In this document: piece by piece, positions 3,236 to 31,174 of the stretch
Numbering within the stretch: position 1 is the first letter of the stretch
Layout of the letters: the number at the start of each line of letters is the position of its first letter
Assembly (NCBI RefSeq): GCF_964019745.1
Contig: NZ_OZ026462.1
Coordinates: forward strand, 120,001-152,000
Reading direction: 5' to 3'
DNA from: Candidatus Saccharimonadota bacterium
GTDB taxonomy: Bacteria > Pseudomonadota > Gammaproteobacteria > Burkholderiales > Burkholderiaceae
Length of the DNA: 32,000 nucleotides
Translations under genes and position numbers: made by a program
The notes under the pieces: generated by a model
Told to the model about the DNA's origin: nothing
The model's database searches: none
What the model saw: the letters and a program-made list of their open reading frames with translations, nothing else

Positions 3236-3417
3236 AATTATATATTTTTCAAAAATTATTTTAAAAAAATATTTATATATTTATAATAATATATATTATT
3301 TATATATAATAAAAAAATAAAATATATATAATATATATTATTTTATATATTATTATAAATAATATATATTTAATATATATTAAAATTTAAAAATAATATT
3401 ATTAATATTTATAAAAT

Positions 3418-3555
3418 ATGAAAAGAACTTATCAACCATCTAAAATAAAACGTAAAAGAACTCATGGATTTAGAAAAAGAATGTCAACTAAAAATGGTAA
3501 AAATATTTTAAATTCAAGAAGATTAAAAAAAAGAAAATTTTTAATTAATTTATAA
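3418..3555 (+). CDS. rpmH: 50S ribosomal protein L34
   Basis: Hand translation gives [45 protein letters not shown] (45 aa), the canonical L34 sequence. It is too short for the supplied ORF track. Confidence 0.95.
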
Positions 3556-3569
3556 TTTTTATAAAATTT

Positions 3570-3886
3570 ATGAAAAAAAAAAGTTATATAATAAATAATT
3601 TTATTATTTTTTTTTTTTTAAAAAAAAAAAAAAAATAATTATTAATATTTCTAAAAAAATAATTAAAAAATCTACAAAAAGAAATGCTATAAAAAGAATA
3701 ATTAAAGAACATTTAAAATTTTTTTTTTTTAAAAAAAATATAATTATAAAATTATTTAAAATAAATAATATTTTTGATACTAATAATAATATTATTAAAA
3801 ATAATATTAAAAAAAAAATAAAAATTTTAATTATTTTTTTAAAAAAAAAAAAAATTATAAGCAATTTATTTATTAAAAATAAATAA
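3570..3886 (+). CDS. rnpA: RNase P protein component, with its reading frame interrupted inside a T13/A16 homopolymer pair
   Basis: It sits in the conserved position between rpmH and yidC. The ATG at 3570 opens MKKKSYIINNFIIFFFLKKKKK and hits TAA at 3636. The -1 frame continues from the A-run as IIINISKKIIKKSTKRNAIKRIIKEHLKFFFFKKN... to TAA at 3884-3886. KK-x-x-K-x-x-x-KRNAIKR-x-IKE is the RnpA 'RNR' motif. The downstream frame has no ATG. Confidence 0.65.
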
Positions 3887-6890: not shown

Positions 6891-8783
6891 ATGTTATTAA
6901 CAGATATATTTGATGTAATTGTTGTAGGTGGTGGACATGCTGGTATTGAAGCAGCATCAGTTGCATCAAGAATGAAATCTAAAACTCTTCTTTTAACAGA
7001 TAATATTGATACAATTGGACAAATGTCTTGTAATCCTTCTATAGGAGGAATAGGAAAAGGACATTTAGTTAAAGAAATTGATGCTATGGGAGGAATTATG
7101 CCTATTATAACAGATAAAGCAGGAATACATTTTAAAACATTAAATACTTCAAAAGGAGCAGCGGTTCAATCCACTAGAGTACAAGTAGATAAAATCTTAT
7201 ATAAAATTTTTATAAGACAAACATTAGAAAAAGAAAAAAATCTTTTAATTTTTCAAGAAACAATTGATAATATTAAAATTAAAAATAATAAAATTATTGG
7301 AGTAATTACTCAATCTGGACTTTTATTAAAATGTAAATCAGTAATATTAACTACTGGAACTTTTTTAAATGGAAAAATTCATATAGGTTCATATAATTAT
7401 AAATCTGGACGTTTAGGTGAAAAATCTTCTATAAATTTATCAAAAAATTTAAATGAATTAAATATTCCTAAAAAAAGATTAAAAACAGGAACACCACCAA
7501 GAATTGATGCAAGAAGTATAAATTTTTTAAAGTTAAAAAAACATAAAGGTGATAAAAATCCTATACCATTTTTTTCTATTATGAGTAATAATGAAAAAAA
7601 TAAAAAACAAAAAAATTGTTGGATAACTAAAACTAACAATAATACACGTGAAATAATTATAAAAAATATTAAAAAAAATCCAATGTATTCAGGGATAATT
7701 AAAGGAATAGGCCCTAGATATTGTCCTTCTATAGAAGAAAAATTTTTAAAATTTCCAGAAAAAAAATCACATAAAATTTATTTAGAAATGGAAAGTTCAA
7801 AAAATAATGAAATTTATCCTAATGGAATTTCTACTAGTTTTTCTTTTGAAATTCAATTAAAAATTTTACATTCTATAAAAGGTTTAGAAAATGCTCATAT
7901 TTTAAGACCTGGATATGCTATAGAATATGATTGTTTTGATCCTAAATTTTTAAAATTAACTTTAGAAACAAAAGAAATTTCAGGTTTATATTTTGCAGGA
8001 CAAATAAATGGAACTACTGGTTATGAAGAAGCAGCTTCACAAGGTTTATTAGCAGGGATAAATGCTTCTTTAAATGCATCTTATAAAGAACAATGGTTTC
8101 CTAAAAGAAATGAAGCATATTTAGGAGTATTAATAGATGATTTAACAACACAAAGTATTAATGAACCTTATAGAATGTTTACTAGTAGAGCTGAATATAG
8201 ATTATATTTAAGAGAAGATAATGCAGATTATCGTTTAACAAAAATTGCAAAAAGTTTAGGTTGTATAAAAAAAAAACAATGGCAACTTTTTAAAAAAAAA
8301 AAAAAAATAATTAATAATGAAATTAAAAGATTAAAAACAATATGGATAAATCCAAAAATTATTAAAAAAAAAGAAATTAAAAGAATTTTATTAAAATCTA
8401 TAAAAAAAGAATATAATTTTTATAATTTATTAAAAAGACCATATATAACTTATGAAAAATTATTATCTATGTTAGATATTAATAATAAATTAATTACTAA
8501 TTATAAAATAACTAATAAAAAAATTTCTAAAGAAATAAATATAAAAATAAAATATGAAGGATATATTAAAAAAGAATATAAAAATATTATTAATCATAAT
8601 AAATACGAAAATATAAAATTACCATATAATTTTAATTATATGAATATTAAAACATTATCTAATGAAGCAAAAGAAAAACTTAATAAATATAAACCAAAAA
8701 CAATTGGTCAAGCTTCTAAAATTTCTGGTATAACTTTTTCATCAATATCAATATTAATAATATTATTTAAATATAAAAAATAA
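6891..8783 (+). CDS. mnmG: tRNA uridine-5-carboxymethylaminomethyl synthesis enzyme MnmG (GidA)
   Basis: 630 aa with an N-terminal FAD fold ([15 protein letters not shown]), plus [11 protein letters not shown] and GYAIEYD motifs typical of GidA. Confidence 0.95.
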
Positions 8784-8793
8784 TTATTTTTAT

Positions 8794-9437
8794 ATGAAAT
8801 ATATAAGTGATATATTAAAAAAAAATTCTAAAAAAATAGGAGTTTTTTTAAAAAAAAATCAAATTAAAAAAATATTAAAATTTATTTTTTTAATAAAAAA
8901 ATGGAATAAAATTTATAATTTAACTTCTATAAAAACATCTAAAAAAATTATTTTTTTTCATATTTTAGATTCTTTAACAATTATAAAATATTTAAAAAAT
9001 AAAAATTATATTTTAGATGTTGGTTCAGGTGTAGGATTACCTGGAATAATAATTGCTATTTTATTAGAAAAAATATCTCCTAAAACTAAAATACATTTAA
9101 TAGATTCAAAAAATAAAAAAATAATATTTTTAAATCAAGTAAAAATAGAATTAAATTTAAAAAATATATCTATATTTTTAACAAGAGTAGAAAATTTTAA
9201 AAAAAAAAATTTTACGATATAATTATATCAAGAAGTTTAACAAATATAAAACAATTTATTAAATGGGCAAAACATTTATTAAAATTTAATGGATTTTTTT
9301 TTGCTATGAAAACAATAATTTCAAAAAAAGAAATTAATAATATACCTAAAAAATGGACAATTATAAAAAAAATATTTTTTAAAATTCCTAAAATTAAAAA
9401 AAAACATTTTTTAATAATAATTTCAAAAAAAAAATAA
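8794..9437 (+). CDS. rsmG: 16S rRNA (guanine527-N7)-methyltransferase RsmG (GidB), interrupted by a frame change in an A11 tract
   Basis: The tracked ORF 8794-9222 carries WNKIYNLTS ... HILDS ... LDVGSGVGLPGIIIAI ... LIDS-x-x-KK-x-x-FL and stops at TAA 9220-9222. The -1 frame continues from the A-run (9199-9209) as FYDIIISRSLTNIKQFIKWAKHLLKFNGFFFAMK... to TAA 9435-9437. This matches the conserved RsmG C-terminal half (FD-x-V-x-SRA ... G ... KG). Confidence 0.8.
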
Positions 9438-9442
9438 TTAAT

Positions 9443-10081
9443 ATGTTTAATATAAATATAATTGATAAAGGTAAAGAAGATTATAAAATAACATTTAAAA
9501 AAATGATTAATTTTATTAAAAAAAGAAATAAAAATACTATTAATGAAATATGGATTGTTGAACATAATCCATGTTTTACATTAGGTTTAAATGCAAATAT
9601 AAAAAATATTATTAATGCACATAATATTCCAATTATTAAAACAGATAGAGGAGGAGATGTAACTTATCATGGACCAGGTCAAATAGTAATTTACTTTTTA
9701 TTAAATTTATTTAAAAAAATTATTAAAAATAAATTTTATTTATTTAAATTTATTAATATTTTAGAAAATTCTATTATTGATACATTAAAAATGTATAACA
9801 TAAATAGTAAAAAAAAAAAAAAACCTGGAATTTATATAAGTAATGGTTTTTGGAAAAATGCAAAAATTGCTTTTTTAGGTTTAAAAATAACTAAAAAATA
9901 TTATACATATCATGGTATTTCTTTAAATATAAATATGAATTTAAAACCTTTTGAATATATTTATCCATGTGGATGTAAAAATATTAAAATTGTAGATATA
10001 AAAACTTTAAATTCTAAAATTTCTAAAAAAAATATAAAAAAAAATTTTATTAAAAAAATAATTTATTATTTAAATAAATAA
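9443..10081 (+). CDS. lipB: Octanoyltransferase (lipoate-protein ligase B)
   Basis: 212 aa with VEHNPCFTLG, the RGGDVTYHGPGQIVIY motif and the catalytic-Cys context YPCG. Confidence 0.9.
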   Translation: MFNINIIDKGKEDYKITFKKMINFIKKRNKNTINEIWIVEHNPCFTLGLNANIKNIINAHNIPIIKTDRGGDVTYHGPGQIVIYFLLNLFKKIIKNKFYLFKFINILENSIIDTLKMYNINSKKKKKPGIYISNGFWKNAKIAFLGLKITKKYYTYHGISLNINMNLKPFEYIYPCGCKNIKIVDIKTLNSKISKKNIKKNFIKKIIYYLNK

Positions 10082-10089
10082 ATTATATT

Positions 10090-10968
10090 ATGAATAATAA
10101 TAAAAAAATAATTAAAAAACCTAAATGGTTAAAAATAAAAACAAATTTTGAAAATAAAAATTTTTTTTCAATGAAAAAAATTTTAAAAATAAATAAAATT
10201 ATTACTGTATGTGAAGAAGCTGCTTGTCCAAATATTATAAAATGTTTTACAAAAGGTATTGCTACATTTATGATAATGGGAAATAAATGTACTAGAAAAT
10301 GTTTTTTTTGTAATATTAAAAATGGAAAACCAACAAAAATTGATATTAATGAACCAAAAAATATAGCAAATATAATTTTAAAATTAAAACTTGATTATGT
10401 TGTTATTACTAGTGTTACTAGAGATGATTTAAAAGATGGAGGTGCTGAACAATTTGCTAAATGTATAAAAAATATACGTAAAATATCTCCTAAAACTAAA
10501 ATAGAAATTTTAGTACCTGATTTTAAAAAAAAAAATAATTTAGCTATTAAAATTTTAAGTAAAAATTTACCAGATGTTATAAATCATAATATTGAAACTA
10601 CTTATAGATTATATAAAAAAATTAAACCAGGAGGAAATTATTTTAATTCATTAAAATTATTAAAAAAAATAAAATTAAATTTTCCTAATTTATTAACAAA
10701 ATCTGGATTAATAATAGGTTTAGGTGAAACTGATGAAGAAATTTTAAATACAATATATGATATTAAAAAAAATAATGTTGATATTTTAACTATTGGACAA
10801 TATTTAATGCCAACAAAAAAACATATTCCAGTTCATAGATATATAAAAAAAATAAAATTTAAAAAATTTAAAAAAGAAGCTTATAAATTAGGTTTTAAAA
10901 CTGTTATATCAGGACCTTTAGTAAGATCTAGTTATAAAGCTAATAAAATTTTTAAAAAAAAAAAATAA
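10090..10968 (+). CDS. lipA: Lipoyl synthase (radical SAM)
   Basis: 292 aa with the auxiliary cluster motif CEEAACPNIIKC, the radical-SAM motif CTRKCFFC and a C-terminal RSSY. Confidence 0.95.
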   Translation: MNNNKKIIKKPKWLKIKTNFENKNFFSMKKILKINKIITVCEEAACPNIIKCFTKGIATFMIMGNKCTRKCFFCNIKNGKPTKIDINEPKNIANIILKLKLDYVVITSVTRDDLKDGGAEQFAKCIKNIRKISPKTKIEILVPDFKKKNNLAIKILSKNLPDVINHNIETTYRLYKKIKPGGNYFNSLKLLKKIKLNFPNLLTKSGLIIGLGETDEEILNTIYDIKKNNVDILTIGQYLMPTKKHIPVHRYIKKIKFKKFKKEAYKLGFKTVISGPLVRSSYKANKIFKKKK

Positions 10969-11095
10969 AATATTTTTTTAAAAATATAAATTTATTGACT
11001 TTTGCAGAAAAAAAGTATATTTTATAAAAATACTCTTTAAAAATTTTTTTTTAAAAAAAAATTTTCTTTTAAAAAAAAAAAAAATATTTTTATAT

Positions 11096-11593
11096 ATAAA
11101 TTATATTTAGAAAATAAATTTTTAATTAAAGATTATTTAAAATTAAATTTAAATTAATAAATTATATTTAGAAAATAAATTTTTAATTAAAGATTATTTA
11201 AAATTAAATTTAAATTAATAAATTATATTTAGAAAATAAATTTTTAATTAAAGATTATTTAAAATTAAATTTAAATTAATAAATTATATTTAGAAAATAA
11301 ATTTTTAATTAAAGATTATTTAAAATTAAATTTAAATTAATAAATTATATTTAGAAAATAAATTTTTAATTAAAGATTATTTAAAATTAAATTTAAATTA
11401 ATAAATTATATTTAGAAAATAAATTTTTAATTAAAGATTATTTAAAATTAAATTTAAATTAATAAATTATATTTAGAAAATAAATTTTTAATTAAAGATT
11501 ATTTAAAATTAAATTTAAATTAATAAATTATATTTAGAAAATAAATTTTTAATTAAAGATTATTTAAAATTAAATTTAAATTAATAAATTATA
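11096..11593. repeat. Tandem array 1: 61-bp unit x about 8.2, all copies identical
   Basis: The unit is AAATTATATTTAGAAAATAAATTTTTAATTAAAGATTATTTAAAATTAAATTTAAATTAAT. In the 60-column listing each successive line is shifted by exactly 1 nt with no substitution. Confidence 0.95.
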
Positions 11594-11624
11594 CAAATAA
11601 TATTTATTAATATTTTATTTAAAT

Positions 11625-11706
11625 TTAATTATTTTTATAATAAATATAAAAATATTATTTAAATAAATTATTTTAATAATTATTATTAATTAATATTTAA
11701 TTAAAT
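11625..11706. repeat. Left copy of an approximately 82-bp direct repeat bracketing array 2
   Basis: TTAATTATTTTTATAATAAATATAAAAATATTATTTAAATAAATTATTTTAATAATTATTATTAATTAATATTTAATTAAATT aligns with 19761-19842, with about 5 mismatches in the hand alignment. Confidence 0.8.
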
Positions 11707-11708
11707 TA

Positions 11709-14700
11709 GTTATTAAATAATGTTTTATTAAATTAATTTTATAACTATTAGATTAGTTTTATAACTATTGGATTAGTTTTATAACGAGTTAAATTATTAA
11801 ATAATATTTTATTAGATTAACTTTATAACAAATTAAGTTATTAAATAATGTTTTATTAGATTAGTTTTATAACTATTAGATTAGTTTTATAACGAGTTAA
11901 ATTATTAAATAATATTTTATTAGATTAGTTTTATAACAAATTAAGTTATTAAATAATGTTTTATTAGATTAGTTTTATAACAAATTAAGTTATTAAATAA
12001 TGTTTTATTAGATTAATTTTATAACTATTAGATTAGTTTTATAACGAGTTAAATTATTAAATAATGTTTTATTAGATTAGTTTTATAACAAATTAAGTTA
12101 TTAAATAATGTTTTATTAGATTAGTTTTATAACAAATTAAGTTATTAAATAATGTTTTATTAGATTAGTTTTATAACAAATTAAGTTATTAAATAATGTT
12201 TTATTAGATTAGCTTTATAACAAATTAAGTTATTAAATAATGTTTTATTAGATTAGTTTTATAACAAATTAAGTTATTAAATAATGTTTTATTAGATTAA
12301 TTTTATAACTATTAGATTAGTTTTATAATGAGTTAAATTATTAAATAATGTTTTATTAGATTAGTTTTATAACAAATTAAGTTATTAAATAATGTTTTAT
12401 TAGATTAGCTTTATAACAAATTAAGTTATTAAATAATGTTTTATTAGATTAGTTTTATAACAAATTAAGTTATTAAATAATGTTTTATTAGATTAGTTTT
12501 ATAACAAATTAAGTTATTAAATAATGTTTTATTAGATTAGTTTTATAACAAATTAAGTTATTAAATAATGTTTTATTAGATTAATTTTATAACTATTAGA
12601 TTAGTTTTATAATGAGTTAAATTATTAAATAATGTTTTATTAGATTAGTTTTATAACAAATTAAGTTATTAAATAATGTTTTATTAGATTAGCTTTATAA
12701 CAAATTAAGTTATTAAATAATGTTTTATTAGATTAGTTTTATAACAAATTAAGTTATTAAATAATGTTTTATTAGATTAGTTTTATAACAAATTAAGTTA
12801 TTAAATAATGTTTTATTAGATTAATTTTATAACTATTAGATTAGTTTTATAATGAGTTAAATTATTAAATAATGTTTTATTAGATTAGTTTTATAACAAA
12901 TTAAGTTATTAAATAATGTTTTATTAGATTAGTTTTATAACAAATTAAGTTATTAAATAATGTTTTATTAGATTAGTTTTATAACAAATTAAGTTATTAA
13001 ATAATGTTTTATTAGATTAGTTTTATAACAAATTAAGTTATTAAATAATGTTTTATTAGATTAATTTTATAACTATTAGATTAGTTTTATAATGAGTTAA
13101 ATTATTAAATAATGTTTTATTAGATTAGTTTTATAACAAATTAAGTTATTAAATAATGTTTTATTAGATTAGTTTTATAACAAATTAAGTTATTAAATAA
13201 TGTTTTATTAGATTAGTTTTATAACAAATTAAGTTATTAAATAATGTTTTATTAGATTAATTTTATAACTATTAGATTAGTTTTATAACGAGTTAAATTA
13301 TTAAATAATGTTTTATTAGATTAGTTTTATAACAAATTAAGTTATTAAATAATGTTTTATTAGATTAGTTTTATAACAAATTAAGTTATTAAATAATGTT
13401 TTATTAGATTAATTTTATAACTATTAGATTAGTTTTATAATGAGTTAAATTATTAAATAATGTTTTATTAGATTAGTTTTATAACAAATTAAGTTATTAA
13501 ATAATGTTTTATTAGATTAGTTTTATAACAAATTAAGTTATTAAATAATGTTTTATTAGATTAGCTTTATAACAAATTAAGTTATTAAATAATGTTTTAT
13601 TAGATTAGTTTTATAACAAATTAAGTTATTAAATAATGTTTTATTAGATTAGTTTTATAACAAATTAAGTTATTAAATAATGTTTTATTAGATTAATTTT
13701 ATAACTATTAGATTAGTTTTATAACGAGTTAAATTATTAAATAATGTTTTATTAGATTAGTTTTATAACAAATTAAGTTATTAAATAATGTTTTATTAGA
13801 TTAGTTTTATAACAAATTAAGTTATTAAATAATGTTTTATTAGATTAGTTTTATAACAAATTAAGTTATTAAATAATGTTTTATTAGATTAGTTTTATAA
13901 CAAATTAAGTTATTAAATAATGTTTTATTAGATTAATTTTATAACTATTAGATTAGTTTTATAATGAGTTAAATTATTAAATAATGTTTTATTAGATTAG
14001 TTTTATAACAAATTAAGTTATTAAATAATGTTTTATTAGATTAGCTTTATAACAAATTAAGTTATTAAATAATGTTTTATTAGATTAGTTTTATAACAAA
14101 TTAAGTTATTAAATAATGTTTTATTAGATTAATTTTATAACTATTAGATTAGTTTTATAATGAGTTAAATTATTAAATAATGTTTTATTAGATTAGTTTT
14201 ATAACAAATTAAGTTATTAAATAATGTTTTATTAGATTAGTTTTATAACAAATTAAGTTATTAAATAATGTTTTATTAGATTAGTTTTATAACAAATTAA
14301 GTTATTAAATAATGTTTTATTAGATTAATTTTATAACTATTAGATTAGTTTTATAATGAGTTAAATTATTAAATAATGTTTTATTAGATTAGTTTTATAA
14401 CAAATTAAGTTATTAAATAATGTTTTATTAGATTAGCTTTATAACAAATTAAGTTATTAAATAATGTTTTATTAGATTAGTTTTATAATAAATTAAGTTA
14501 TTAAATAATGTTTTATTAGATTAGTTTTATAACAAATTAAGTTATTAAATAATGTTTTATTAGATTAATTTTATAACTATTAGATTAGTTTTATAACGAG
14601 TTAAATTATTAAATAATGTTTTATTAGATTAGTTTTATAACAAATTAAGTTATTAAATAATGTTTTATTAGATTAGTTTTATAACAAATAAAGTTATTAA

Positions 14701-17700
14701 ATAATGTTTTATTAGATTAGTTTTATAACAAATTAAGTTATTAAATAATGTTTTATTAGATTAGTTTTATAACAAATTAAGTTATTAAATAATGTTTTAT
14801 TAGATTAATTTTATAACTATTAGATTAGTTTTATAACGAGTTAAATTATTAAATAATGTTTTATTAGATTAGTTTTATAACAAATTAAGTTATTAAATAA
14901 TGTTTTATTAGATTAGCTTTATAACAAATTAAGTTATTAAATAATGTTTTATTAGATTAGTTTTATAACAAATTAAGTTATTAAATAATGTTTTATTAGA
15001 TTAGTTTTATAACAAATTAAGTTATTAAATAATGTTTTATTAGATTAATTTTATAACGAGTTAAATTATTAAATAATGTTTTATTAGATTAGTTTTATAA
15101 CAAATTAAGTTATTAAATAATGTTTTATTAGATTAGTTTTATAACAAATTAAGTTATTAAATAATGTTTTATTAGATTAATTTTATAACTATTAGATTAG
15201 TTTTATAACGAGTTAAATTATTAAATAATGTTTTATTAGATTAGTTTTATAACAAATTAAGTTATTAAATAATGTTTTATTAGATTAGTTTTATAACAAA
15301 TTAAGTTATTAAATAATGTTTTATTAGATTAATTTTATAACTATTAGATTAGTTTTATAATGAGTTAAATTATTAAATAATGTTTTATTAGATTAGTTTT
15401 ATAACAAATTAAGTTATTAAATAATGTTTTATTAGATTAGCTTTATAACAAATTAAGTTATTAAATAATGTTTTATTAGATTAGTTTTATAACAAATTAA
15501 GTTATTAAATAATGTTTTATTAGATTAGTTTTATAACAAATTAAGTTATTAAATAATGTTTTATTAGATTAATTTTATAACTATTAGATTAGTTTTATAA
15601 CGAGTTAAATTATTAAATAATGTTTTATTAGATTAGTTTTATAACAAATTAAGTTATTAAATAATGTTTTATTAGATTAGTTTTATAACAAATTAAGTTA
15701 TTAAATAATGTTTTATTAGATTAATTTTATAACTATTAGATTAGTTTTATAACGAGTTAAATTATTAAATAATGTTTTATTAGATTAGTTTTATAACAAA
15801 TTAAGTTATTAAATAATGTTTTATTAGATTAGTTTTATAACAAATAAAGTTATTAAATAATGTTTTATTAGATTAGTTTTATAACAAATTAAGTTATTAA
15901 ATAATGTTTTATTAGATTAGTTTTATAACAAATTAAGTTATTAAATAATGTTTTATTAGATTAGTTTTATAACAAATAAAGTTATTAAATAATGTTTTAT
16001 TAGATTAGTTTTATAACAAATTAAGTTATTAAATAATGTTTTATTAGATTAGTTTTATAACAAATTAAGTTATTAAATAATGTTTTATTAGATTAATTTT
16101 ATAACTATTAGATTAGTTTTATAACAAATTAAGTTATTAAATAATGTTTTATTAGATTAGCTTTATAACAAATTAAGTTATTAAATAATGTTTTATTAGA
16201 TTAGTTTTATAACAAATTAAGTTATTAAATAATGTTTTATTAGATTAGTTTTATAACAAATTAAGTTATTAAATAATGTTTTATTAGATTAGTTTTATAA
16301 CAAATTAAGTTATTAAATAATGTTTTATTAGATTAATTTTATAACTATTAGATTAGTTTTATAACAAATTAAGTTATTAAATAATGTTTTATTAGATTAG
16401 CTTTATAACAAATTAAGTTATTAAATAATGTTTTATTAGATTAGTTTTATAACAAATTAAGTTATTAAATAATGTTTTATTAGATTAGCTTTATAACAAA
16501 TTAAGTTATTAAATAATGTTTTATTAGATTAGTTTTATAACAAATTAAGTTATTAAATAATGTTTTATTAGATTAGTTTTATAACAAATTAAGTTATTAA
16601 ATAATGTTTTATTAGATTAATTTTATAACTATTAGATTAGTTTTATAACGAGTTAAATTATTAAATAATGTTTTATTAGATTAGTTTTATAACAAATTAA
16701 GTTATTAAATAATGTTTTATTAGATTAGTTTTATAACAAATAAAGTTATTAAATAATGTTTTATTAGATTAGTTTTATAACAAATTAAGTTATTAAATAA
16801 TGTTTTATTAGATTAATTTTATAACTATTAGATTAGTTTTATAACGAGTTAAATTATTAAATAATGTTTTATTAGATTAGTTTTATAACAAATTAAGTTA
16901 TTAAATAATGTTTTATTAGATTAGCTTTATAACAAATTAAGTTATTAAATAATGTTTTATTAGATTAGTTTTATAACAAATTAAGTTATTAAATAATGTT
17001 TTATTAGATTAGTTTTATAACAAATTAAGTTATTAAATAATGTTTTATTAGATTAATTTTATAACTATTAGATTAGTTTTATAACGAGTTAAATTATTAA
17101 ATAATGTTTTATTAGATTAGTTTTATAACAAATTAAGTTATTAAATAATGTTTTATTAGATTAGTTTTATAACAAATAAAGTTATTAAATAATGTTTTAT
17201 TAGATTAGTTTTATAACAAATTAAGTTATTAAATAATGTTTTATTAGATTAATTTTATAACTATTAGATTAGTTTTATAACGAGTTAAATTATTAAATAA
17301 TGTTTTATTAGATTAGTTTTATAACAAATTAAGTTATTAAATAATGTTTTATTAGATTAGCTTTATAACAAATTAAGTTATTAAATAATGTTTTATTAGA
17401 TTAGTTTTATAACAAATTAAGTTATTAAATAATGTTTTATTAGATTAGTTTTATAACAAATTAAGTTATTAAATAATGTTTTATTAGATTAATTTTATAA
17501 CGAGTTAAATTATTAAATAATGTTTTATTAGATTAGTTTTATAACAAATTAAGTTATTAAATAATGTTTTATTAGATTAGTTTTATAACAAATTAAGTTA
17601 TTAAATAATGTTTTATTAGATTAATTTTATAACTATTAGATTAGTTTTATAACGAGTTAAATTATTAAATAATGTTTTATTAGATTAGTTTTATAACAAA

Positions 17701-19759
17701 TTAAGTTATTAAATAATGTTTTATTAGATTAGTTTTATAACAAATTAAGTTATTAAATAATGTTTTATTAGATTAATTTTATAACTATTAGATTAGTTTT
17801 ATAATGAGTTAAATTATTAAATAATGTTTTATTAGATTAGTTTTATAACAAATTAAGTTATTAAATAATGTTTTATTAGATTAGCTTTATAACAAATTAA
17901 GTTATTAAATAATGTTTTATTAGATTAGTTTTATAACAAATTAAGTTATTAAATAATGTTTTATTAGATTAGTTTTATAACAAATTAAGTTATTAAATAA
18001 TGTTTTATTAGATTAATTTTATAACTATTAGATTAGTTTTATAACGAGTTAAATTATTAAATAATGTTTTATTAGATTAGTTTTATAACAAATTAAGTTA
18101 TTAAATAATGTTTTATTAGATTAGTTTTATAACAAATAAAGTTATTAAATAATGTTTTATTAGATTAGTTTTATAACAAATTAAGTTATTAAATAATGTT
18201 TTATTAGATTAGTTTTATAACAAATTAAGTTATTAAATAATGTTTTATTAGATTAGTTTTATAACAAATAAAGTTATTAAATAATGTTTTATTAGATTAG
18301 TTTTATAACAAATTAAGTTATTAAATAATGTTTTATTAGATTAGTTTTATAACAAATTAAGTTATTAAATAATGTTTTATTAGATTAATTTTATAACTAT
18401 TAGATTAGTTTTATAACAAATTAAGTTATTAAATAATGTTTTATTAGATTAGCTTTATAACAAATTAAGTTATTAAATAATGTTTTATTAGATTAGTTTT
18501 ATAACAAATTAAGTTATTAAATAATGTTTTATTAGATTAGTTTTATAACAAATTAAGTTATTAAATAATGTTTTATTAGATTAATTTTATAACGAGTTAA
18601 ATTATTAAATAATGTTTTATTAGATTAGTTTTATAACAAATTAAGTTATTAAATAATGTTTTATTAGATTAGTTTTATAACAAATTAAGTTATTAAATAA
18701 TGTTTTATTAGATTAATTTTATAACTATTAGATTAGTTTTATAACGAGTTAAATTATTAAATAATGTTTTATTAGATTAGTTTTATAACAAATTAAGTTA
18801 TTAAATAATGTTTTATTAGATTAGTTTTATAACAAATTAAGTTATTAAATAATGTTTTATTAGATTAATTTTATAACTATTAGATTAGTTTTATAATGAG
18901 TTAAATTATTAAATAATGTTTTATTAGATTAGTTTTATAACAAATTAAGTTATTAAATAATGTTTTATTAGATTAGCTTTATAACAAATTAAGTTATTAA
19001 ATAATGTTTTATTAGATTAGTTTTATAACAAATTAAGTTATTAAATAATGTTTTATTAGATTAGTTTTATAACAAATTAAGTTATTAAATAATGTTTTAT
19101 TAGATTAATTTTATAACTATTAGATTAGTTTTATAACGAGTTAAATTATTAAATAATGTTTTATTAGATTAGTTTTATAACAAATTAAGTTATTAAATAA
19201 TGTTTTATTAGATTAGTTTTATAACAAATAAAGTTATTAAATAATGTTTTATTAGATTAGTTTTATAACAAATTAAGTTATTAAATAATGTTTTATTAGA
19301 TTAGTTTTATAACAAATTAAGTTATTAAATAATGTTTTATTAGATTAGTTTTATAACTATTAGATTAGTTTTATAACGAGTTAAATTATTAAATAATGTT
19401 TTATTAGATTAGTTTTATAACAAATTAAGTTATTAAATAATGTTTTATTAGATTAGCTTTATAACAAATTAAGTTATTAAATAATGTTTTATTAGATTAG
19501 TTTTATAACAAATTAAGTTATTAAATAATGTTTTATTAGATTAGTTTTATAACAAATTAAGTTATTAAATAATGTTTTATTAGATTAATTTTATAACTAT
19601 TAGATTAGTTTTATAACGAGTTAAATTATTAAATAATGTTTTATTAGATTAGTTTTATAACAAATTAAGTTATTAAATAATGTTTTATTAGATTAGTTTT
19701 ATAACAAATAAAGTTATTAAATAATGTTTTATTAAATTAATTTTATAATAAATTAAGTT
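11709..19759. repeat. Tandem array 2: 44-bp basic unit with a 64-bp variant, about 167 units (8.05 kb), higher-order organised
   Basis: The consensus is GTTATTAAATAATGTTTTATTAGATTAGTTTTATAACAAATTAA. My hand parse gives about 133 units of 44 bp and about 34 units of 64 bp (one of them 84 bp). That sums to 8048 bp against 8051 bp observed. Confidence 0.95.
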
Positions 19760-19760
19760 A

Positions 19761-19842
19761 TTAATTATTTTTATAATAAACATAAAAATATTATTTAAAT
19801 AAATTAATTTAATAATTATTATTAAATAATATTTAAATTAAT
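19761..19842. repeat. Right copy of the approximately 82-bp direct repeat bracketing array 2
   Basis: TTAATTATTTTTATAATAAACATAAAAATATTATTTAAATAAATTAATTTAATAATTATTATTAAATAATATTTAAATTAATT begins 1 nt after the last 44-bp unit. A further partial copy (GTTATTAATTATTTTTAAT) occurs near 19856. Confidence 0.8.
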
Positions 19843-19938
19843 TAATTTTACAATAAGTTATTAATTATTTTTAATATTAAAAATAAAAAGATTATAATAT
19901 AAATATTAATATTTTAATAAATTTATATAAATAAATTA

Positions 19939-22900
19939 TTAGTTATTTTTATAAAAATATTAAAAAATAATTATTAATTTATTAATTTATTAATTTATTA
20001 ATTTATTAATTTATTAATTTATTAATTTATTAATTTATTAATTTATTAATTTATTAATTTATTAATTTATTAATTTATTAATTTATTAATTTAATATCAT
20101 TAATAAGATATAATAAATTAATATTTTTATTAATTTTTGTTTATATAAATAAAATATATATAAATTTATATATATAAATTGTTAATTATTTTTATTATAG
20201 TATTAAAAAATAATTAATAATTTATTAATTTAATATTTTAATAAAACTTAATGAATAAATATTATTATTAATTTTTAAATTTATTTTTTTTATATAGATA
20301 AAATATATATAAATTTATATAGGTAAATTGTTAATTATTTTTATTATAGTATTAAAAAATAATTAATAATTTATTAATTTAATATTTTAATAAAACTTAA
20401 TGAACAAATATTATTATTAATTTTTAAATTTATTTTTTTTATATAGATAAAATATATATAAATTTATATAGGTAAATTGTTAATTATTTTTATTATAGTA
20501 TTAAAAAATAATTAATAATTTATTAATTTAATATTTTAATAAAACTTAATGAACAAATATTATTATTAATTTTTAAATTTATTTTTTTTATATAGATAAA
20601 ATATATATAAATTTATATAGGTAAATTGTTAATTATTTTTATTATAGTATTAAAAAATAATTAATAATTTATTAATTTAATATTTTAATAAAACTTAATG
20701 AACAAATATTATTATTAATTTTTAAATTTATTTTTTTTATATAGATAAAATATATATAAATTTATATAGGTAAATTGTTAATTATTTTTATTATAGTATT
20801 AAAAAATAATTAATAATTTATTAATTTAATATTTTAATAAAACTTAATGAACAAATATTATTATTAATTTTTAAATTTATTTTTTTTATATAGATAAAAT
20901 ATATATAAATTTATATAGGTAAATTGTTAATTATTTTTATTATAGTATTAAAAAATAATTAATAATTTATTAATTTAATATTTTAATAAAACTTAATGAA
21001 CAAATATTATTATTAATTTTTAAATTTATTTTTTTTATATAGATAAAATATATATAAATTTATATAGGTAAATTGTTAATTATTTTTATTATAGTATTAA
21101 AAAATAATTAATAATTTATTAATTTAATATTTTAATAAAACTTAATAAACAAATATTATTATTAATTTTTAAATTTATTTTTTTTATATAGATAAAATAT
21201 ATATAAATTTATATAGGTAAATTGTTAATTATTTTTATTATAGTATTAAAAAATAATTAATAATTTATTAATTTAATATTTTAATAAAACTTAATGAACA
21301 AATATTATTATTAATTTTTAAATTTATTTTTTTTATATAGATAAAATATATATAAATTTATATAGGTAAATTGTTAATTATTTTTATTATAGTATTAAAA
21401 AATAATTAATAATTTATTAATTTATTAATTTAATATTTTAATAAAACTTAATGAACAAATATTATTATTAATTTTTAAATTTATTTTTTTTATATAGATA
21501 AAATATATATAAATTTATATAGGTAAATTGTTAATTATTTTTATTATAGTATTAAAAAATAATTAATAATTTATTAATTTAATATTTTAATAAAACTTAA
21601 TGAACAAATATTATTATTAATTTTTAAATTTATTTTTTTTATATAGATAAAATATATATAAATTTATATAGGTAAATTGTTAATTATTTTTATTATAGTA
21701 TTAAAAAATAATTAATAATTTATTAATTTATTAATTTAATATTTTAATAAAACTTAATGAACAAATATTATTATTAATTTTTAAATTTATTTTTTTTATA
21801 TAGATAAAATATATATAAATTTATATAGGTAAATTGTTAATTATTTTTATTATAGTATTAAAAAATAATTAATAATTTATTAATTTAATATTTTAATAAA
21901 ACTTAATGAACAAATATTATTATTAATTTTTAAATTTATTTTTTTTATATAGATAAAATATATATAAATTTATATAGGTAAATTGTTAATTATTTTTATT
22001 ATAGTATTAAAAGATAATTAATAATTTAATAATTTATTAATTTAATATTTTAATAAAACTTAATGAACAAATATTATTATTAATTTTTAAATTTATTTTT
22101 TTTATATAGATAAAATATATATAAATTTATATAGGTAAATTGTTAATTATTTTTATTATAGTATTAAAAAATAATTAATAATTTATTAATTTAATATTTT
22201 AATAAAACTTAATGAACAAATATTATTATTAATTTTTAAATTTATTTTTTTTATATAGATAAAATATATATAAATTTATATAGGTAAATTGTTAATTATT
22301 TTTATTATAGTATTAAAAAATAATTAATAATTTATTAATTTATTAATTTAATATTTTAATAAAACTTAATGAACAAATATTATTATTAATTTTTAAATTT
22401 ATTTTTTTTATATAGATAAAATATATATAAATTTATATAGGTAAATTGTTAATTATTTTTATTATAGTATTAAAAAATAATTAATAATTTATTAATTTAA
22501 TATTTTAATAAAACTTAATGAACAAATATTATTATTAATTTTTAAATTTATTTTTTTTATATAGATAAAATATATATAAATTTATATAGGTAAATTGTTA
22601 ATTATTTTTATTATAGTATTAAAAAATAATTAATAATTTATTAATTTATTAATTTAATATTTTAATAAAACTTAATGAACAAATATTATTATTAATTTTT
22701 AAATTTATTTTTTTTATATAGATAAAATATATATAAATTTATATAGGTAAATTGTTAATTATTTTTATTATAGTATTAAAAAATAATTAATAATTTATTA
22801 ATTTAATATTTTAATAAAACTTAATGAACAAATATTATTATTAATTTTTAAATTTATTTTTTTTATATAGATAAAATATATATAAATTTATATAGGTAAA

Positions 22901-23186
22901 TTGTTAATTATTTTTATTATAGTATTAAAAAATAATTAATAATTTATTAATTTATTAATTTATTAATTTAATATTTTAATAAAACTTAATGAACAAATAT
23001 TATTATTAATTTTTAAATTTATTTTTTTTATATAGATAAAATATATATAAATTTATATAGATAAATTGTTAATTATTTTTATTATAGTATTAAAAAATAA
23101 TTAATAATTTATTAATTTATTAATTTAATATTTTATTAAAATTTAATAAATAAATATTTTTATTTATATAAATAAAATATATATTT
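19939..23186. repeat. Tandem array 3: 149-bp unit x 19 full copies, plus a degenerate first unit and a partial last unit
   Basis: The unit is TTAATTATTTTTATTATAGTATTAAAAAATAATTAATAATTTATTAATTTAATATTTTAATAAAACTTAATGAACAAATATTATTATTAATTTTTAAATTTATTTTTTTTATATAGATAAAATATATATAAATTTATATAGGTAAATTG. Unit starts are 20182, 20331, ... 23069. Unit lengths are 149 (x13), 157 (x5) and 165 (x1). Confidence 0.95.
19971..20093. repeat. 8-bp microsatellite (TTATTAAT) x about 15, lying inside the degenerate first unit of array 3
   Basis: Perfect period-8 run. The same motif is present in 2-4 copies inside every 149-bp unit. Confidence 0.95.
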
Positions 23187-23214
23187 TTTTAATTAAAAAT
23201 TTTAATAAATTATT

Positions 23215-23316
23215 AATTATTTAAAATTATTTAAAATTATTTAAAATTATTTAAAATTATTTAAAATTATTTAAAATTATTTAAAATTATTTAAAATTAT
23301 TTAAAATTATTTAAAA
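23215..23316. repeat. 10-bp tandem repeat (TTAAAATTAT) x about 10, a phased A4 tract
   Basis: Perfect period-10 run, ending about 300 bp upstream of the 16S 5' end. Confidence 0.95.
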
Positions 23317-23340
23317 AAATATTAAAAATTTTTTTAAATA

Positions 23341-23369
23341 TTGTTTACTTTTTAAATAAAATATAATAT
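23341..23369 (+). promoter_or_regulatory. Candidate sigma70-type promoter for the rRNA operon (weak call)
   Basis: TTGTTT (23341-46) is followed by N15 then TATAAT (23362-67), or by N17 then TAATAT. It lies about 255 bp upstream of the 16S gene. -10-like hexamers occur by chance everywhere in DNA this AT-rich. Confidence 0.2.
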
Positions 23370-23619
23370 AATATATTAAAAGAATATTTTATATTTATAT
23401 AAAAAAAATTATATAATTTAATTTAAAAAAAATTATTTTAATTTTTTGAAAATAATAATATATTGATAATAAAAATTATATTAAAAATTATATATAATAT
23501 TTAATTATATTATATTAATTTAATTAATTTTTAAATATAAATTTTATTTTTATTAAAAGTTTTTTTGTTTTTGTAAAATTTTTATAAGTATTTAAAATAA
23601 ATTATAAGTTATTTTTTTA

Positions 23620-25163
<1,544 letters not shown>

Positions 25164-25292: not shown

Positions 25293-28202
<2,910 letters not shown>

Positions 28203-31170: not shown

Positions 31171-31174
31171 TTTT

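What the first reader, a model, noticed from the sequence alone, without database searches (positions are those of the whole stretch)
11709..19759. 8-kb 44-bp satellite with alpha-satellite-like higher-order repeat structure
The array is not a simple monomer run. By hand I distinguish these unit types:
- N: ...GATTAGTTTTATAACAAATTAAGTT..., the majority type
- G: GATTAGCTTT...
- K: ...AACAAATAAAGTT
- R: one copy, TATAATAAATT at about 14485
- X: a 64-bp unit, GATTAATTTTATAACTATTAGATTAGTTTTATAA(C/T)GAGTTAAATT. It carries an internal 20-bp duplication and a rearranged tail, and comes in C and T subtypes.
- Y: X with a normal tail, seen at 16090, 16330 and 18385

The 64-bp units punctuate the array at spacings of 152, 196, 240 or 284 bp (64 + k x 44, with k = 2-5). 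G units usually sit second after an X unit. T-subtype X units dominate the left half (12295-14323) and C-subtype plus K units dominate the right half. This is a gradient typical of arrays evolving by local unequal exchange. Such organisation is characteristic of eukaryotic centromeric satellites. I do not know of it in reduced bacterial genomes.
Basis: seen in the sequence. Interest (0 to 1): 0.8.

Follow-up and report, generated by a model that had tools for sequence, protein, structure and literature searches.

The report
Giant structured tandem repeat in Zinderia
A tiny insect-symbiont bacterium (Zinderia of the alder spittlebug) carries an 8-kb non-coding run of about 167 copies of a 44-base unit whose variants recur in a fixed multi-unit order, most likely a by-product of slippage-prone DNA copying and not a working element.

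Summary
Positions 11712-19759 are a head-to-tail array of about 167 units: 44-bp units, plus 64-bp units that carry a 20-bp internal duplication. Unit order is strongly non-random. Long units always lie 3-8 units apart. The G and K variants sit two units after a long unit 18 times, against 5.6 expected (0 of 20,000 shuffles reach this). A 240-bp pentamer is the commonest block. An 832-bp stretch is present in three exact copies, two pairs of which extend to about 960 bp.

The window is bacterial: Candidatus Zinderia endosymbiont of Aphrophora alni, on a 336,619-bp contig. The array is the largest part of a 12.65-kb non-coding block between lipA and the rRNA operon. That block also holds a perfect 61-bp array, a 149/157-bp array with its own dimeric higher-order pattern, and perfect 8-bp and 10-bp runs.

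I found no ORF, RNA family, DnaA box, parS site, hairpin, curvature signal or promoter excess. No related array turned up in public collections.

The best reading is a neutral, slippage- or unequal-exchange-driven satellite. Its closest parallel is the hypervariable 72/79-bp array of the sister symbiont Nasuia. "Higher-order repeat" is supported. "Alpha-satellite-like or centromeric" and "unknown in reduced bacteria" are not. It is a new, larger variant of a known kind, of moderate interest.

The parts
11712..19759 (+). Main array: about 167 head-to-tail units of 44 bp (consensus ATTAAATAATGTTTTATTAGATTAGTTTTATAACAAATTAAGTT), punctuated every 3-8 units by 64-bp units that carry a 20-bp internal tandem duplication and a 3-substitution tail. 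The modal higher-order block is 240 bp (one long unit plus four 44-bp units). All units have the same orientation.
14735..15693 (+). First copy of a roughly 960-bp segment repeated exactly inside the array (unit string ...NN SNN CNN TNGNN CN...). It is identical to 17179-18137. Its 832-bp core, 14862-15693, is also identical to 18398-19229.
   Evidence: 959-bp exact run at shift 2444; 832-bp at shift 3536
17179..18265 (+). Second copy of the internally duplicated segment. 17179-18137 equals 14735-15693, and 17306-18265 equals 18398-19357.
18398..19357 (+). Third copy of the internally duplicated segment (960 bp, identical to 17306-18265).
   Evidence: 960-bp exact run at shift 1092
11624..11710 (+). 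Left copy of a direct repeat of about 90 bp that brackets the array. It is the remnant of an older, degenerate unit of about 105 bp from which the 44-bp unit was amplified.
   Evidence: local alignment of left and right flanks; 105-bp period at 19707-19934
19760..19850 (+). Right copy of the bracketing direct repeat of about 90 bp. The terminal array units on both sides share the G-poor variant TTAAATTAATTTT.
11096..11593 (+). Neighbouring array: 61-bp unit x 8.2, 100% identical copies, 3.2% G+C.
19971..20093 (+). Perfect (TTATTAAT) x 15 run at the left edge of the 149-bp array. The same 8-mer forms the tail of each 149-bp unit.
20067..23130 (+). Second large array, about 20 units of 149 bp (A) or 157 bp (B, which is A plus one extra TTATTAAT). 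The unit string is CAAAAADBABAEABABAF: monomeric on the left, a 306-bp A-B dimer higher-order repeat on the right.
23215..23316 (+). Perfect (AATTATTTAA) x 10 run, about 300 bp upstream of the 16S gene.
10969..23619 (.). The whole non-coding repeat block between the lipA stop codon and the 16S rRNA start: 12,651 bp, 9.0% G+C, GC skew +0.55 throughout. It has no ORF longer than 31 aa and no RNA family hit.

Best explanation
The array is a non-coding minisatellite in the chromosome of the spittlebug symbiont Candidatus Zinderia (host Aphrophora alni). It was built by DNA-copying accidents, not for a function.

Proposed history (inferred):
1. An older repeat of about 105 bp lay between lipA and the rRNA operon.
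2. Its 44-bp portion was amplified.
3. A slippage event duplicated 20 bp inside one unit, creating the 64-bp type.
4. A five-unit block (long unit, N, G or K, N, N; 240 bp) was then amplified as a whole.
5. Gains and losses of single 44-bp units produced the 152, 196 and 284-bp versions.
6. Most recently, in-register duplications of 1-2.4 kb produced three exact copies of a segment of about 900 bp in the right half.

The likely drivers are replication slippage and unequal exchange between the many chromosome copies of a polyploid endosymbiont with weakened repair and weak selection against extra DNA. The higher-order pattern is the footprint of those multi-unit events.

Shown: the anatomy, the non-random order, the nested duplications, and the absence of coding or known cis-element signals.

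Inferred: the mechanism, the neutrality, and the copy-number instability.
For: - Organism and setting. MnmG, YidC and LipA encoded in the window are 100% identical to proteins of Candidatus Zinderia endosymbiont of Aphrophora alni, on a 336,619-bp contig. The window has an rRNA operon and ordinary housekeeping genes on both sides of the block.
- Nested tandem duplication at every scale within one 12.65-kb block: 8- and 10-bp perfect runs, a 20-bp intra-unit duplication, 44/64-bp units, 240-bp blocks, and 960-bp exact repeats at shifts of 1092 and 2444 bp. The neighbouring 149/157-bp array independently shows the same behaviour, with an 8-bp slippage variant forming a 306-bp dimer repeat. The 61-bp array has 8.2 identical copies.
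- The array edges are degenerate and bracketed by a direct repeat of about 90 bp. Both terminal units share the same G-poor variant. This is the classic picture of a homogenised interior with non-homogenised edges.
- Recombinant unit types exist: Y (X head with N tail), S (X without the duplication) and Z.
- No functional signal was found:
  - no ORF of 32 aa or more;
  - no Rfam hit at E <= 1;
  - no DnaA box in the block;
  - no parS site;
  - promoter-like sites 229 against 227 +/- 14 expected, and no terminators;
  - single-strand folding z-scores near 0;
  - predicted curvature and 11-bp phasing within the range of shuffled units;
  - no copy of the unit elsewhere in the window or on the other strand.
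- Slippage-prone context. rsmG and rnpA are each interrupted by one frameshift in a long homopolymer. Other spacers are modestly enriched in tandem repeats: 24.5% covered, against 15 +/- 4.7% in shuffles.
- Precedent. The Nasuia 72/79-bp array varies from 7 to 53 copies among reads of one sample (PMC7952229). Portiera BT shows proliferation of repeats together with loss of replication and repair genes (PMC3673631).
Against: - The array has 11.7% G+C, well above the 1.6-5.1% of the surrounding non-coding DNA. The degenerate flank copies have lost 3 of the 4 G positions. Either the amplification is recent or the G positions are maintained by constraint or biased conversion.
- Outside this block the window is gene-dense. 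Extra DNA is therefore not tolerated everywhere, and it is unexplained why 12.65 kb accumulates just here, next to the only rRNA operon seen in the window and about 7 kb from a candidate origin.
- Nasuia genomes keep a large non-coding repeat region across species (PMC5533117), which hints at function in the sister lineage.
- The presence or absence of recA, mismatch-repair genes or dnaQ in this genome could not be checked.
- No reads were available, so copy-number instability is assumed and not shown.
Confidence: 0.66

Rival explanations
1. The array is a working cis-acting chromosome element. It would be a long row of binding sites for a nucleoid, segregation or replication protein, for example a DnaA-independent origin or a centromere-like partition region. 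It would be kept long and homogeneous by selection, and would be functionally equivalent to the conserved non-coding repeat region of Nasuia.
For: - The block lies about 7 kb from a candidate origin. That candidate is the 182-bp rpsP-rpmH spacer with 99.5% A+T, divergent gene orientation on either side, the rpmH-rnpA-yidC-mnmE-mnmG-rsmG cluster next to it, and a weak change of GC-skew sign at 3-6 kb.
- In a free-living relative, parA and parB follow rsmG. Here they are replaced by lipB-lipA.
- The unit keeps 4 G and 1 C, while the flank copies lost most of their G.
- The Nasuia repeat region is conserved between species, function unknown (PMC5533117).
Against: - No DnaA boxes in the block, no parS site, and no adjacent rep or par gene.
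- GC skew is uniformly +0.55 across the block, with no switch inside it.
- There is no curvature or phasing signal beyond shuffled units.
- No related array exists in 185,579 representative genomes, in metagenomes or in viral contigs.
- Four or five unrelated repeat families sit side by side, which looks like a mutational hotspot and not one designed site array.
Confidence: 0.12
2. The block behaves like a eukaryotic rDNA intergenic spacer. It would be transcribed or regulatory DNA upstream of the rRNA operon, either a very long leader started at a conserved promoter just after lipA, or repeated enhancer or 'spacer promoter' units that load RNA polymerase.
For: - A promoter-like element, ATTGACTTTTG...AAAAAAAGTATA (TTGACT, 17 nt, then TATTTT or TAAAAT), lies directly 3' of lipA and points into the block. 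It is conserved in a relative whose LipA is only 80% identical.
- The block ends about 300 bp before the 16S gene.
- No terminator-like site occurs anywhere in the block.
- T-type long units carry TTTATA-16-TATAAT.
- G>C and T>A skew on the + strand fits a non-template strand.
- From general knowledge, Xenopus 60/81-bp and Drosophila 240-bp rDNA spacer repeats have a similar layout.
Against: - Promoter-like sites are no more frequent than in shuffled sequence: 229 against 227 +/- 14.
- Zero terminators is also what the shuffles give.
- The boxA-like TACTCTTTAAAAA at 11031-11043 is not conserved in the relative, and its core occurs at chance frequency.
- The skew fits leading-strand replication equally well.
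- No expression data were available.
Confidence: 0.06
3. The unit types are real, but the long-range order and total length are partly an assembly product. On this reading the contig shows one path through, or a collapse or expansion of, a population of heteroplasmic array versions. The exact 1-2.4 kb duplications would be the most suspect part.
For: - The host was sequenced with PacBio Revio: 7.34 million reads and 68.61 Gb, so about 9.3 kb on average (PMC11579584). That is barely longer than the 8.05-kb array and shorter than the 12.65-kb block.
- Three exact copies of an 832-960-bp segment lie within 4.6 kb, which is hard for an assembler to resolve.
- In Nasuia the comparable array ranged from 7 to 53 copies among reads (PMC7952229).
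- That the symbiont contig came from these same reads is my inference.
Against: - The position-specific variants (G or K at +2) recur in the left half too, where there are no long exact duplications. The higher-order pattern therefore does not depend on the suspect part.
- All unit lengths are exact, with no indel noise.
- Unique degenerate flanks join the array to bacterial genes on both sides.
Confidence: 0.2
4. The array is a host (insect) satellite joined to the symbiont contig by mistake.
For: - Higher-order satellites are typical of eukaryotes.
- The assembly comes from whole-insect DNA (PMC11579584).
Against: - This would need two chimeric joins, because bacterial genes flank the block on both sides of one contig.
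- The array grades into degenerate copies and into other arrays with the same extreme A+T content and the same +0.5 GC skew as the rest of the block.
- At 88% A+T it matches Zinderia non-coding DNA.
- The host genome could not be searched here.
Confidence: 0.02

Closest known systems
Hypervariable 72/79-bp tandem array of Candidatus Nasuia deltocephalinicola (Waneka et al. 2021, PMC7952229), and the conserved large non-coding region with two tandem repeats in Nasuia genomes (PMC5533117)
   Same: - Sister betaproteobacterial symbiont of Auchenorrhyncha with a tiny, extremely A+T-rich genome.
- Non-coding array of very G+C-poor units.
- Two unit lengths that differ by a short internal tandem duplication: 72/79 there, 44/64 and 149/157 here.
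- More than one repeat family in a single non-coding region.
- Function unknown.
   Different: - Larger here: about 167 units and 8 kb, in a 12.65-kb block that is 3.7% of the contig. Nasuia has a modal 22 units, about 1.6 kb.
- Different position: lipA-rrs here, hisG-gltX in Nasuia.
- An explicit higher-order order and kb-scale internal duplications are shown here and were not described there.
- Copy-number heterogeneity was shown there and not tested here.
- Sequence similarity between the two units was not tested.
Expanded repetitive intergenic regions of Candidatus Portiera aleyrodidarum BT (Sloan and Moran 2013, PMC3673631)
   Same: - Obligate insect endosymbiont in which tandem repeats proliferate in spacers.
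- Tandem arrays vary within single insects.
- The repeats are attributed to lost replication and repair genes and a relaxed deletion bias.
   Different: - Portiera's expansion is genome-wide (69% coding), dominated by 7-bp microsatellites plus a 6.1-kb unit.
- Here the rest of the window is gene-dense and the repeats are concentrated in one block of minisatellites.
Primate alpha-satellite higher-order repeat arrays
   Same: - Head-to-tail monomers.
- A multi-monomer unit with position-specific variants, amplified as a whole.
- Near-identity between copies of the larger unit.
- Degenerate array edges and local variant domains.
   Different: - Monomers here differ by only 2-9% plus one indel, against 20-40% in alpha-satellite.
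- Irregular block length.
- 8 kb, not megabases.
- Bacterial chromosome with no kinetochore, and no evidence of any segregation role.
Sub-repeat arrays of eukaryotic rDNA intergenic spacers (Xenopus 60/81-bp, Drosophila 240-bp; from general knowledge)
   Same: - Several different tandem repeat families stacked directly upstream of the rRNA genes.
- Unit-length dimorphism caused by a roughly 20-bp indel.
   Different: - Those repeats contain demonstrable promoter or enhancer copies.
- Here the units show no similarity to the rRNA promoter region and no promoter excess over chance.
- This is a single bacterial operon, not an rDNA array.

Membership tests
Alpha-satellite-type higher-order repeat (HOR) satellite | Long head-to-tail array of monomers of fixed length | tested here: met
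   About 167 units of 44 or 64 bp over 8,048 bp. Autocorrelation at 44 bp is 0.87.
Alpha-satellite-type higher-order repeat (HOR) satellite | Distinguishable monomer types occupy fixed positions in a multi-monomer unit that is itself repeated | tested here: met
   A long unit sits at position 0. G or K sits at +2 in 18 cases, against 5.6 expected (0 of 20,000 shuffles reach this). Autocorrelation at 240 bp is 0.865, close to the 0.87 at 44 bp. The fourteen 240-bp blocks are 97.1-100% identical.
Alpha-satellite-type higher-order repeat (HOR) satellite | Monomers within one HOR unit are strongly diverged (about 20-40%) while HOR copies are nearly identical | tested here: not met
   N versus G or K: 1 difference in 44. 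N versus the X-type (S): 4 differences in 44 plus a 20-bp duplication.
Alpha-satellite-type higher-order repeat (HOR) satellite | Regular HOR period across the array | tested here: not met
   Block lengths are 132, 152, 196, 240, 284 and 372 bp. Only 14 of 37 blocks are 240 bp.
Alpha-satellite-type higher-order repeat (HOR) satellite | Centromere or kinetochore association | not testable with these tools
   The chromosome is bacterial. No segregation-related motif or gene was found nearby.
Hypervariable non-coding tandem arrays of tiny insect-endosymbiont genomes (Nasuia 72/79-bp type) | Located in a highly reduced, extremely A+T-rich obligate insect symbiont genome | tested here: met
   Candidatus Zinderia endosymbiont of Aphrophora alni, 336,619-bp contig. 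Genes in the window have 12-23% G+C.
Hypervariable non-coding tandem arrays of tiny insect-endosymbiont genomes (Nasuia 72/79-bp type) | Intergenic, with no coding or structured-RNA content | tested here: met
   No ORF longer than 31 aa, no Rfam hit at E <= 1, and folding z-scores near 0.
Hypervariable non-coding tandem arrays of tiny insect-endosymbiont genomes (Nasuia 72/79-bp type) | Mixture of two unit lengths that differ by a short internal tandem duplication | tested here: met
   44 versus 64 bp (20-bp duplication), and 149 versus 157 bp (8-bp duplication) in the neighbouring array. Compare 72/79 bp in PMC7952229.
Hypervariable non-coding tandem arrays of tiny insect-endosymbiont genomes (Nasuia 72/79-bp type) | Copy number differs among genome copies or reads of one sample | not testable with these tools
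   No reads were available. The source genome is not in the contig collections.
Hypervariable non-coding tandem arrays of tiny insect-endosymbiont genomes (Nasuia 72/79-bp type) | Sequence or positional homology with the Nasuia region | not tested
   The Nasuia unit sequence was not at hand. The positions differ: lipA-rrs here, hisG-gltX there (PMC5533117).
Bacterial replication origin (oriC) or iteron array | Cluster of DnaA boxes, or iterons next to an initiator gene | tested here: not met
   TTWTNCACA gives 4 hits in the window (3.25 expected), none between 10969 and 23619. There is no initiator gene next to the block.
Bacterial replication origin (oriC) or iteron array | GC-skew sign change at the element | tested here: not met
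   Skew is uniformly +0.47 to +0.60 across the block. The only sign change in the window lies at about 3-6 kb.
ParABS centromere-like site | parS palindromes near parAB | tested here: not met
   The only 3-mismatch parS-like hit lies inside mnmG. parA and parB are absent after rsmG, where a free-living relative has them.
CRISPR array | Identical repeats separated by unique spacers of similar length | tested here: not met
   The units abut directly, with no unique spacers.

The most novel reading that the evidence does not exclude
The 12.65-kb repeat block is a maintained chromosomal organ of the betaproteobacterial symbionts Zinderia and Nasuia, not junk. It would be a protein-binding or transcribed array that took over replication initiation, chromosome segregation or rRNA-operon control after dnaA/parAB-type systems were lost. 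Its higher-order homogenisation would be the bacterial counterpart of centromeric or rDNA-spacer satellite dynamics.
Probability: 0.1. Interest if true: 0.8.

Novelty: new variant of a known kind. Interest (0 to 1): 0.42.

Why it matters
Ancient insect endosymbionts are the textbook case of compact, structurally frozen genomes under deletion bias. Here, a 337-kb genome spends 3.7% of its length on stacked satellite arrays.

The main array records a readable history: unit, then internal duplication, then five-unit block, then kb-scale duplication. It shows that satellite-type turnover, normally studied in eukaryotic centromeres, also runs in a minimal bacterial chromosome.

Because the unit map is so informative, the locus could serve two purposes:
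- a natural recorder of slippage and unequal-exchange rates in an unculturable, polyploid symbiont;
- a fine-scale marker of symbiont lineages between host individuals.

If the block turned out to be conserved or bound by a protein, it would bear on the open question of how dnaA- and par-poor symbionts replicate and segregate their chromosomes.

Tried and rejected
- **Coding repeat protein.** Rejected. 44 is not a multiple of 3 and there is no ORF of 32 aa or more in the 12.65 kb.
- **Known RNA.** Rejected. No Rfam match at E <= 1 and no tRNA.
- **Hairpin or cruciform-forming unit.** Rejected. DNA folding z-scores were -0.08, -0.41 and +0.01. Inverted repeats are only about 70-74% complementary, which is A+T noise.
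- **Bent-DNA satellite.** No support. The 11-bp AA/TT phasing is reached by 12% of shuffled units. Predicted end-to-end ratio is 0.88, against 0.91 +/- 0.06 for shuffled units (the wedge parameters were recalled from memory, so this is only a rough test).
- **oriC, iterons or parS.** Motifs are absent.
- **Promoter array.** No excess over shuffles.
- **rRNA antiterminator boxA after the lipA-proximal promoter.** There is an 11/13 match at 11031-11043. It is not conserved in the relative, and its core occurs at chance frequency.
- **CRISPR.** There are no spacers.
- **Dispersed copies of the unit.** None elsewhere in the window on either strand.
- **Related arrays elsewhere.** The pattern ATTAAATAATRTTTTATTARATTA gave only single chance matches in representative genomes (3), metagenomes (14) and viral contigs (2). 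The source genome itself is not in those collections. Exact-protein look-ups for LipA and MnmG found no contig.
- **Array of a relative.** I found lipA contigs of two related symbionts (LipA 81% and 80% identical). They end 2 and 77 bp after the stop codon, so nothing can be said about their arrays.
- **One script timed out**. It was rerun without the block.

Full report
**1. What the window is**

The window carries a bacterial rRNA operon: 16S at 23620-25163, 23S at 25296-28202 and 5S at 28294-28406. It also carries a tRNA-Lys and ordinary housekeeping genes of 12-23% G+C.

The gene order is:
- cyoE, fumC, rplS, rpsP
- rpmH (3418-3555) and rnpA
- yidC, mnmE, mnmG, rsmG, lipB, lipA (ending at 10968)
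- a 12,651-bp gene-free block
- rrs, rrl, rrf
- ribE, ruvX, yqgE, a LOG-family gene, tRNA-Lys, and a gene start that I did not characterise

MnmG, YidC and LipA are 100% identical to NCBI proteins of "Candidatus Zinderia endosymbiont of Aphrophora alni", on a 336,619-bp contig. The next-best MnmG hits are free-living Oxalobacteraceae at about 55-57% identity.

This is the betaproteobacterial co-symbiont of a spittlebug. The host was sequenced by PacBio Revio, with a mean read length of about 9.3 kb (PMC11579584). That the symbiont contig derives from those reads is my inference.

**2. The observation**

Tandem Repeats Finder finds a 44-bp array (11766-19597, 179.5 copies, 83% matches). It scores the same stretch better at period 240 (89% matches, 4% indels).

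Cutting at the invariant anchor ATTAAATAAT gives 167 units:

| Type | Length | Description | Copies |
|---|---|---|---|
| N | 44 bp | majority unit | 100 |
| G | 44 bp | T26C | 17 |
| K | 44 bp | T39A | 9 |
| C | 64 bp | long unit, ...AACGAG | 17 |
| T | 64 bp | long unit, ...AATGAG | 11 |
| Y | 64 bp | long head with an N tail | 3 |
| S | 44 bp | long-unit tail, no duplication | 3 |
| Z | 64 bp | long unit with G in the first 20-mer | 2 |
| edge units | various | unique | 4 |

A long unit is an N-like unit with a 20-bp internal tandem duplication (TATTAGATTAATTTTATAAC | TATTAGATTAGTTTTATAAC) and three substitutions in its tail.

Every unit is exactly 44, 64 or 84 bp, and each variant recurs identically. 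Read error is therefore excluded.

The unit string is:

abZcN CNNNGN TNGNNN TNGNN TNNNN TNNN CNN TNNGNN CNNNN TNGN TNNN TNGdN CNKNN CNGNN SNN CNN TNGNN CNN CNKNNKNN YGNNN YGNGNN CNKN CNGNN CNKN CNGNN SNN CNN TNGNN CNKNNKNN YGNN SNN CNN TNGNN CNKNN ZNGNN CNKe

**3. Is the order more than chance?**

Yes. Against 20,000 shuffles of the 162 core units:

| Measure | Observed | Shuffled |
|---|---|---|
| G or K exactly two units after a punctuating unit | 18 | 5.6 +/- 1.9 |
| Minimum spacing of punctuating units | 3 | 1 |
| Variance of that spacing | 1.6 | 15.1 |
| Adjacent non-N pairs | 4 | 23.4 |
| Distinct unit 5-mers | 74 | 118 |

No shuffle reached the observed value for any measure.

Base-level self-similarity is 0.870 at a shift of 44 bp and 0.865 at 240 bp, then 0.833 at 196 and 0.829 at 480. 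The fourteen 240-bp blocks are 97.1-100% identical to each other.

On top of this there are large exact duplications:
- 14735-15693 equals 17179-18137 (shift 2444).
- 17306-18265 equals 18398-19357 (shift 1092).
- An 832-bp core is therefore present three times.
- There are also 682-bp and 648-bp exact repeats.

The left/right gradient is real but modest. T versus C position gives p = 0.038, and K, S and Y occur only in the right two thirds. It is partly a by-product of those duplications.

**4. The surroundings change the picture**

The 44-bp array is only the largest tenant of a 12.65-kb block made almost entirely of tandem repeats:
- a 61-bp unit x 8.2 with 100% identity (11096-11593);
- the 44-bp array;
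- (TTATTAAT) x 15, perfect (19971-20093);
- a 149-bp array (20067-23130);
- (AATTATTTAA) x 10, perfect (23215-23316).

The 149-bp array has its own higher-order pattern. Its units are 149 bp (A) or 157 bp (B, with one extra TTATTAAT). The string CAAAAADBABAEABABAF is monomeric on the left and a 306-bp A-B dimer on the right.

The 44-bp array is bracketed by a direct repeat of about 90 bp (11624-11710 and 19760-19850). Its two terminal units share the same G-poor variant. The array therefore grew inside an older, now degenerate repeat of about 105 bp, and its edges escaped homogenisation.

The whole block has 9.0% G+C and a uniform GC skew of about +0.55. All units point the same way, and none occurs elsewhere in the window.

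**5. Tests for function**

All tests came out negative:
- no ORF of 32 aa or more;
- no Rfam family at E <= 1;
- no DnaA box in the block;
- no parS site;
- promoter-like sites at the shuffled expectation (229 against 227 +/- 14) and no terminators;
- no single-strand structure, with z-scores near 0;
- no curvature or 11-bp phasing beyond shuffled units;
- only A+T-noise inverted repeats.

The unit has no relatives in 185,579 representative bacterial and archaeal genomes, in JGI metagenomes or in IMG/VR. Only single chance matches were found.

**6. Mechanism**

Tandem duplication is nested at 8, 10, 20, 44, 61, 149, 240, 306 and about 1000-2400 bp in one spot. There are recombinant unit types (Y, S, Z) and degenerate edges.

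This is what replication slippage and unequal exchange between sister or sibling chromosomes produce, and a higher-order pattern is its expected footprint. I therefore read the array as a largely neutral satellite.

Supporting context:
- rsmG and rnpA are each broken by one frameshift in a long homopolymer. Both give full-length family matches when the frames are joined.
- Other spacers are modestly enriched in tandem repeats: 24.5% covered, against 15 +/- 4.7% in shuffles.

Published parallels:
- In the sister symbiont Nasuia, a mixed 72/79-bp array (79 = 72 + a 7-bp tandem duplication) ranges from 7 to 53 copies among nanopore reads (PMC7952229).
- Nasuia genomes share a large non-coding region with two tandem repeats, of unknown function (PMC5533117).
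- Portiera BT shows repeat proliferation together with loss of replication and repair genes (PMC3673631).

**7. What does not fit neatly**

- The array has 11.7% G+C, while neighbouring non-coding DNA has 1.6-5.1%. The flank copies have lost 3 of the 4 G positions. Either the amplification is young or those positions are held.
- The rest of the window is gene-dense, so it is unexplained why this site tolerates 12.65 kb.
- The block lies about 7 kb from a candidate origin: the 182-bp, 99.5% A+T rpsP-rpmH spacer, with divergent genes on either side, the rpmH-yidC-mnmG cluster next to it and a weak skew switch.
- It also lies directly upstream of the only rRNA operon seen in the window.
- A promoter-like element just after lipA is conserved in a relative with only 80% LipA identity, and it points into the block.

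These points keep a functional reading alive at roughly 10-20%. That reading would be a protein-binding or segregation element, or rDNA-spacer-like transcribed or regulatory DNA.

**8. Reliability of the long-range map**

With reads of about 9 kb, an 8-kb array holding three exact copies of about 900 bp is near the limit of what an assembler resolves. In Nasuia the equivalent array is heteroplasmic.

The unit types and the local grammar (long unit, N, G or K, N, N) are safe, because they also recur in the left half, which lacks long duplications. The exact length and the kb-scale duplications should be treated as one plausible version until single reads confirm them.

**9. Verdict**

- The "higher-order repeat" interpretation is supported.
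- The "alpha-satellite-like or centromeric" flavour is analogy only. Monomer divergence and regularity both fail the family test.
- The claim of no precedent in reduced bacteria is incorrect.
- It is a new, unusually large and well-structured variant of the non-coding tandem arrays already known from tiny insect symbionts.
- Interest is moderate. It would be higher if the block proved to be conserved, bound by a protein or transcribed.

Noticed in passing
window 8794-9430 (+): rsmG is interrupted by a one-base frameshift in an A10 run at about 9200-9210. The table-11 ORF stops at 9222, but joining the two frames gives a full-length GidB match (PF02527 positions 1-179 of 184, E = 4e-49). It could be a real frameshift rescued by polymerase slippage, a young pseudogene, or a homopolymer sequencing error.
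   Followed up: partly
window 3570-3884 (+): rnpA lies between rpmH and yidC but is split by one frameshift in a T12A16 homopolymer at about 3610-3637. The joined product matches Ribonuclease_P (PF00825, 24.7 bits against a cut-off of 22.3). Its C-terminus aligns with the partial ORF upstream of yidC in a related symbiont contig (L022).
   Followed up: partly
window 3236-3417: The 182-bp spacer between the divergent rpsP (-) and rpmH (+) genes has 1 C and 0 G (99.5% A+T) and is full of short A/T repeats. Gene orientation diverges here and GC skew changes from negative to positive within the next few kb. It is a candidate replication origin or unwinding element, with no DnaA box nearby.
   Followed up: partly
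window 10993-11025 (+); L024 1167-1200: A promoter-like element directly 3' of lipA (ATTGACTTTTG...AAAAAAAGTATA; TTGACT, 17 nt, then TATTTT or TAAAAT) is conserved in a related symbiont from run ERR14886530, whose LipA is only 80% identical. It points into the repeat block. What it drives is unknown.
   Followed up: partly
window 20067-23130: The neighbouring 149-bp array has its own higher-order structure. Seven monomeric 149-bp units are followed by alternating 149/157-bp units (a 306-bp dimer). The 157-bp form carries one extra TTATTAAT, and that 8-mer is expanded to 15 perfect copies at the array's left edge (19971-20093).
   Followed up: yes
window 11096-11593: A 61-bp unit is repeated 8.2 times with 100% identity (3.2% G+C, 16 G and 0 C). 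This implies very recent amplification or very efficient homogenisation.
   Followed up: no
whole window, 14 complete ORFs: All 33 Trp codons are TGG, there is no in-frame TGA, and all 14 stop codons are TAA. This window gives no sign of the UGA=Trp reassignment reported for Zinderia in the literature (PMC3787670). This genome is also much larger than I recall for the first sequenced Zinderia genome (about 208 kb, from memory).
   Followed up: partly
window 8783-10968 compared with L020 8872-11267: In a free-living Oxalobacteraceae relative, mnmG-rsmG is followed by parA-parB and the atp operon. In this Zinderia, rsmG is followed by lipB-lipA and then the repeat block. parAB are therefore missing from their usual place.
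   Followed up: no
L022, L023, L024 (Logan contigs of ERR14886530 and SRR21069227): Two further Zinderia-like symbionts exist in public read sets (LipA 80-81% and YidC 57% identical to the window). They have the same lipB-lipA and rnpA-yidC-mnmE order. Both lipA contigs end 2 and 77 bp after the stop codon, the longer one in (TA)-rich low-complexity sequence.
   Followed up: partly
window 31174-31375: A (TTATATATA) x about 19 microsatellite (88% matches) fills the spacer after tRNA-Lys, just before a gene start that I did not characterise.
   Followed up: no
window 11712-19759 compared with 19760-20066 and 23131-23619: The 44-bp array has 11.7% G+C, well above the adjacent non-repetitive non-coding DNA (1.6-2.0%) and the other arrays (3.2-5.1%). 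The decayed flank copies of the unit have G-to-A changes at 3 of its 4 G positions. This is unexplained: the array may be young, under constraint, or subject to biased conversion.
   Followed up: partly
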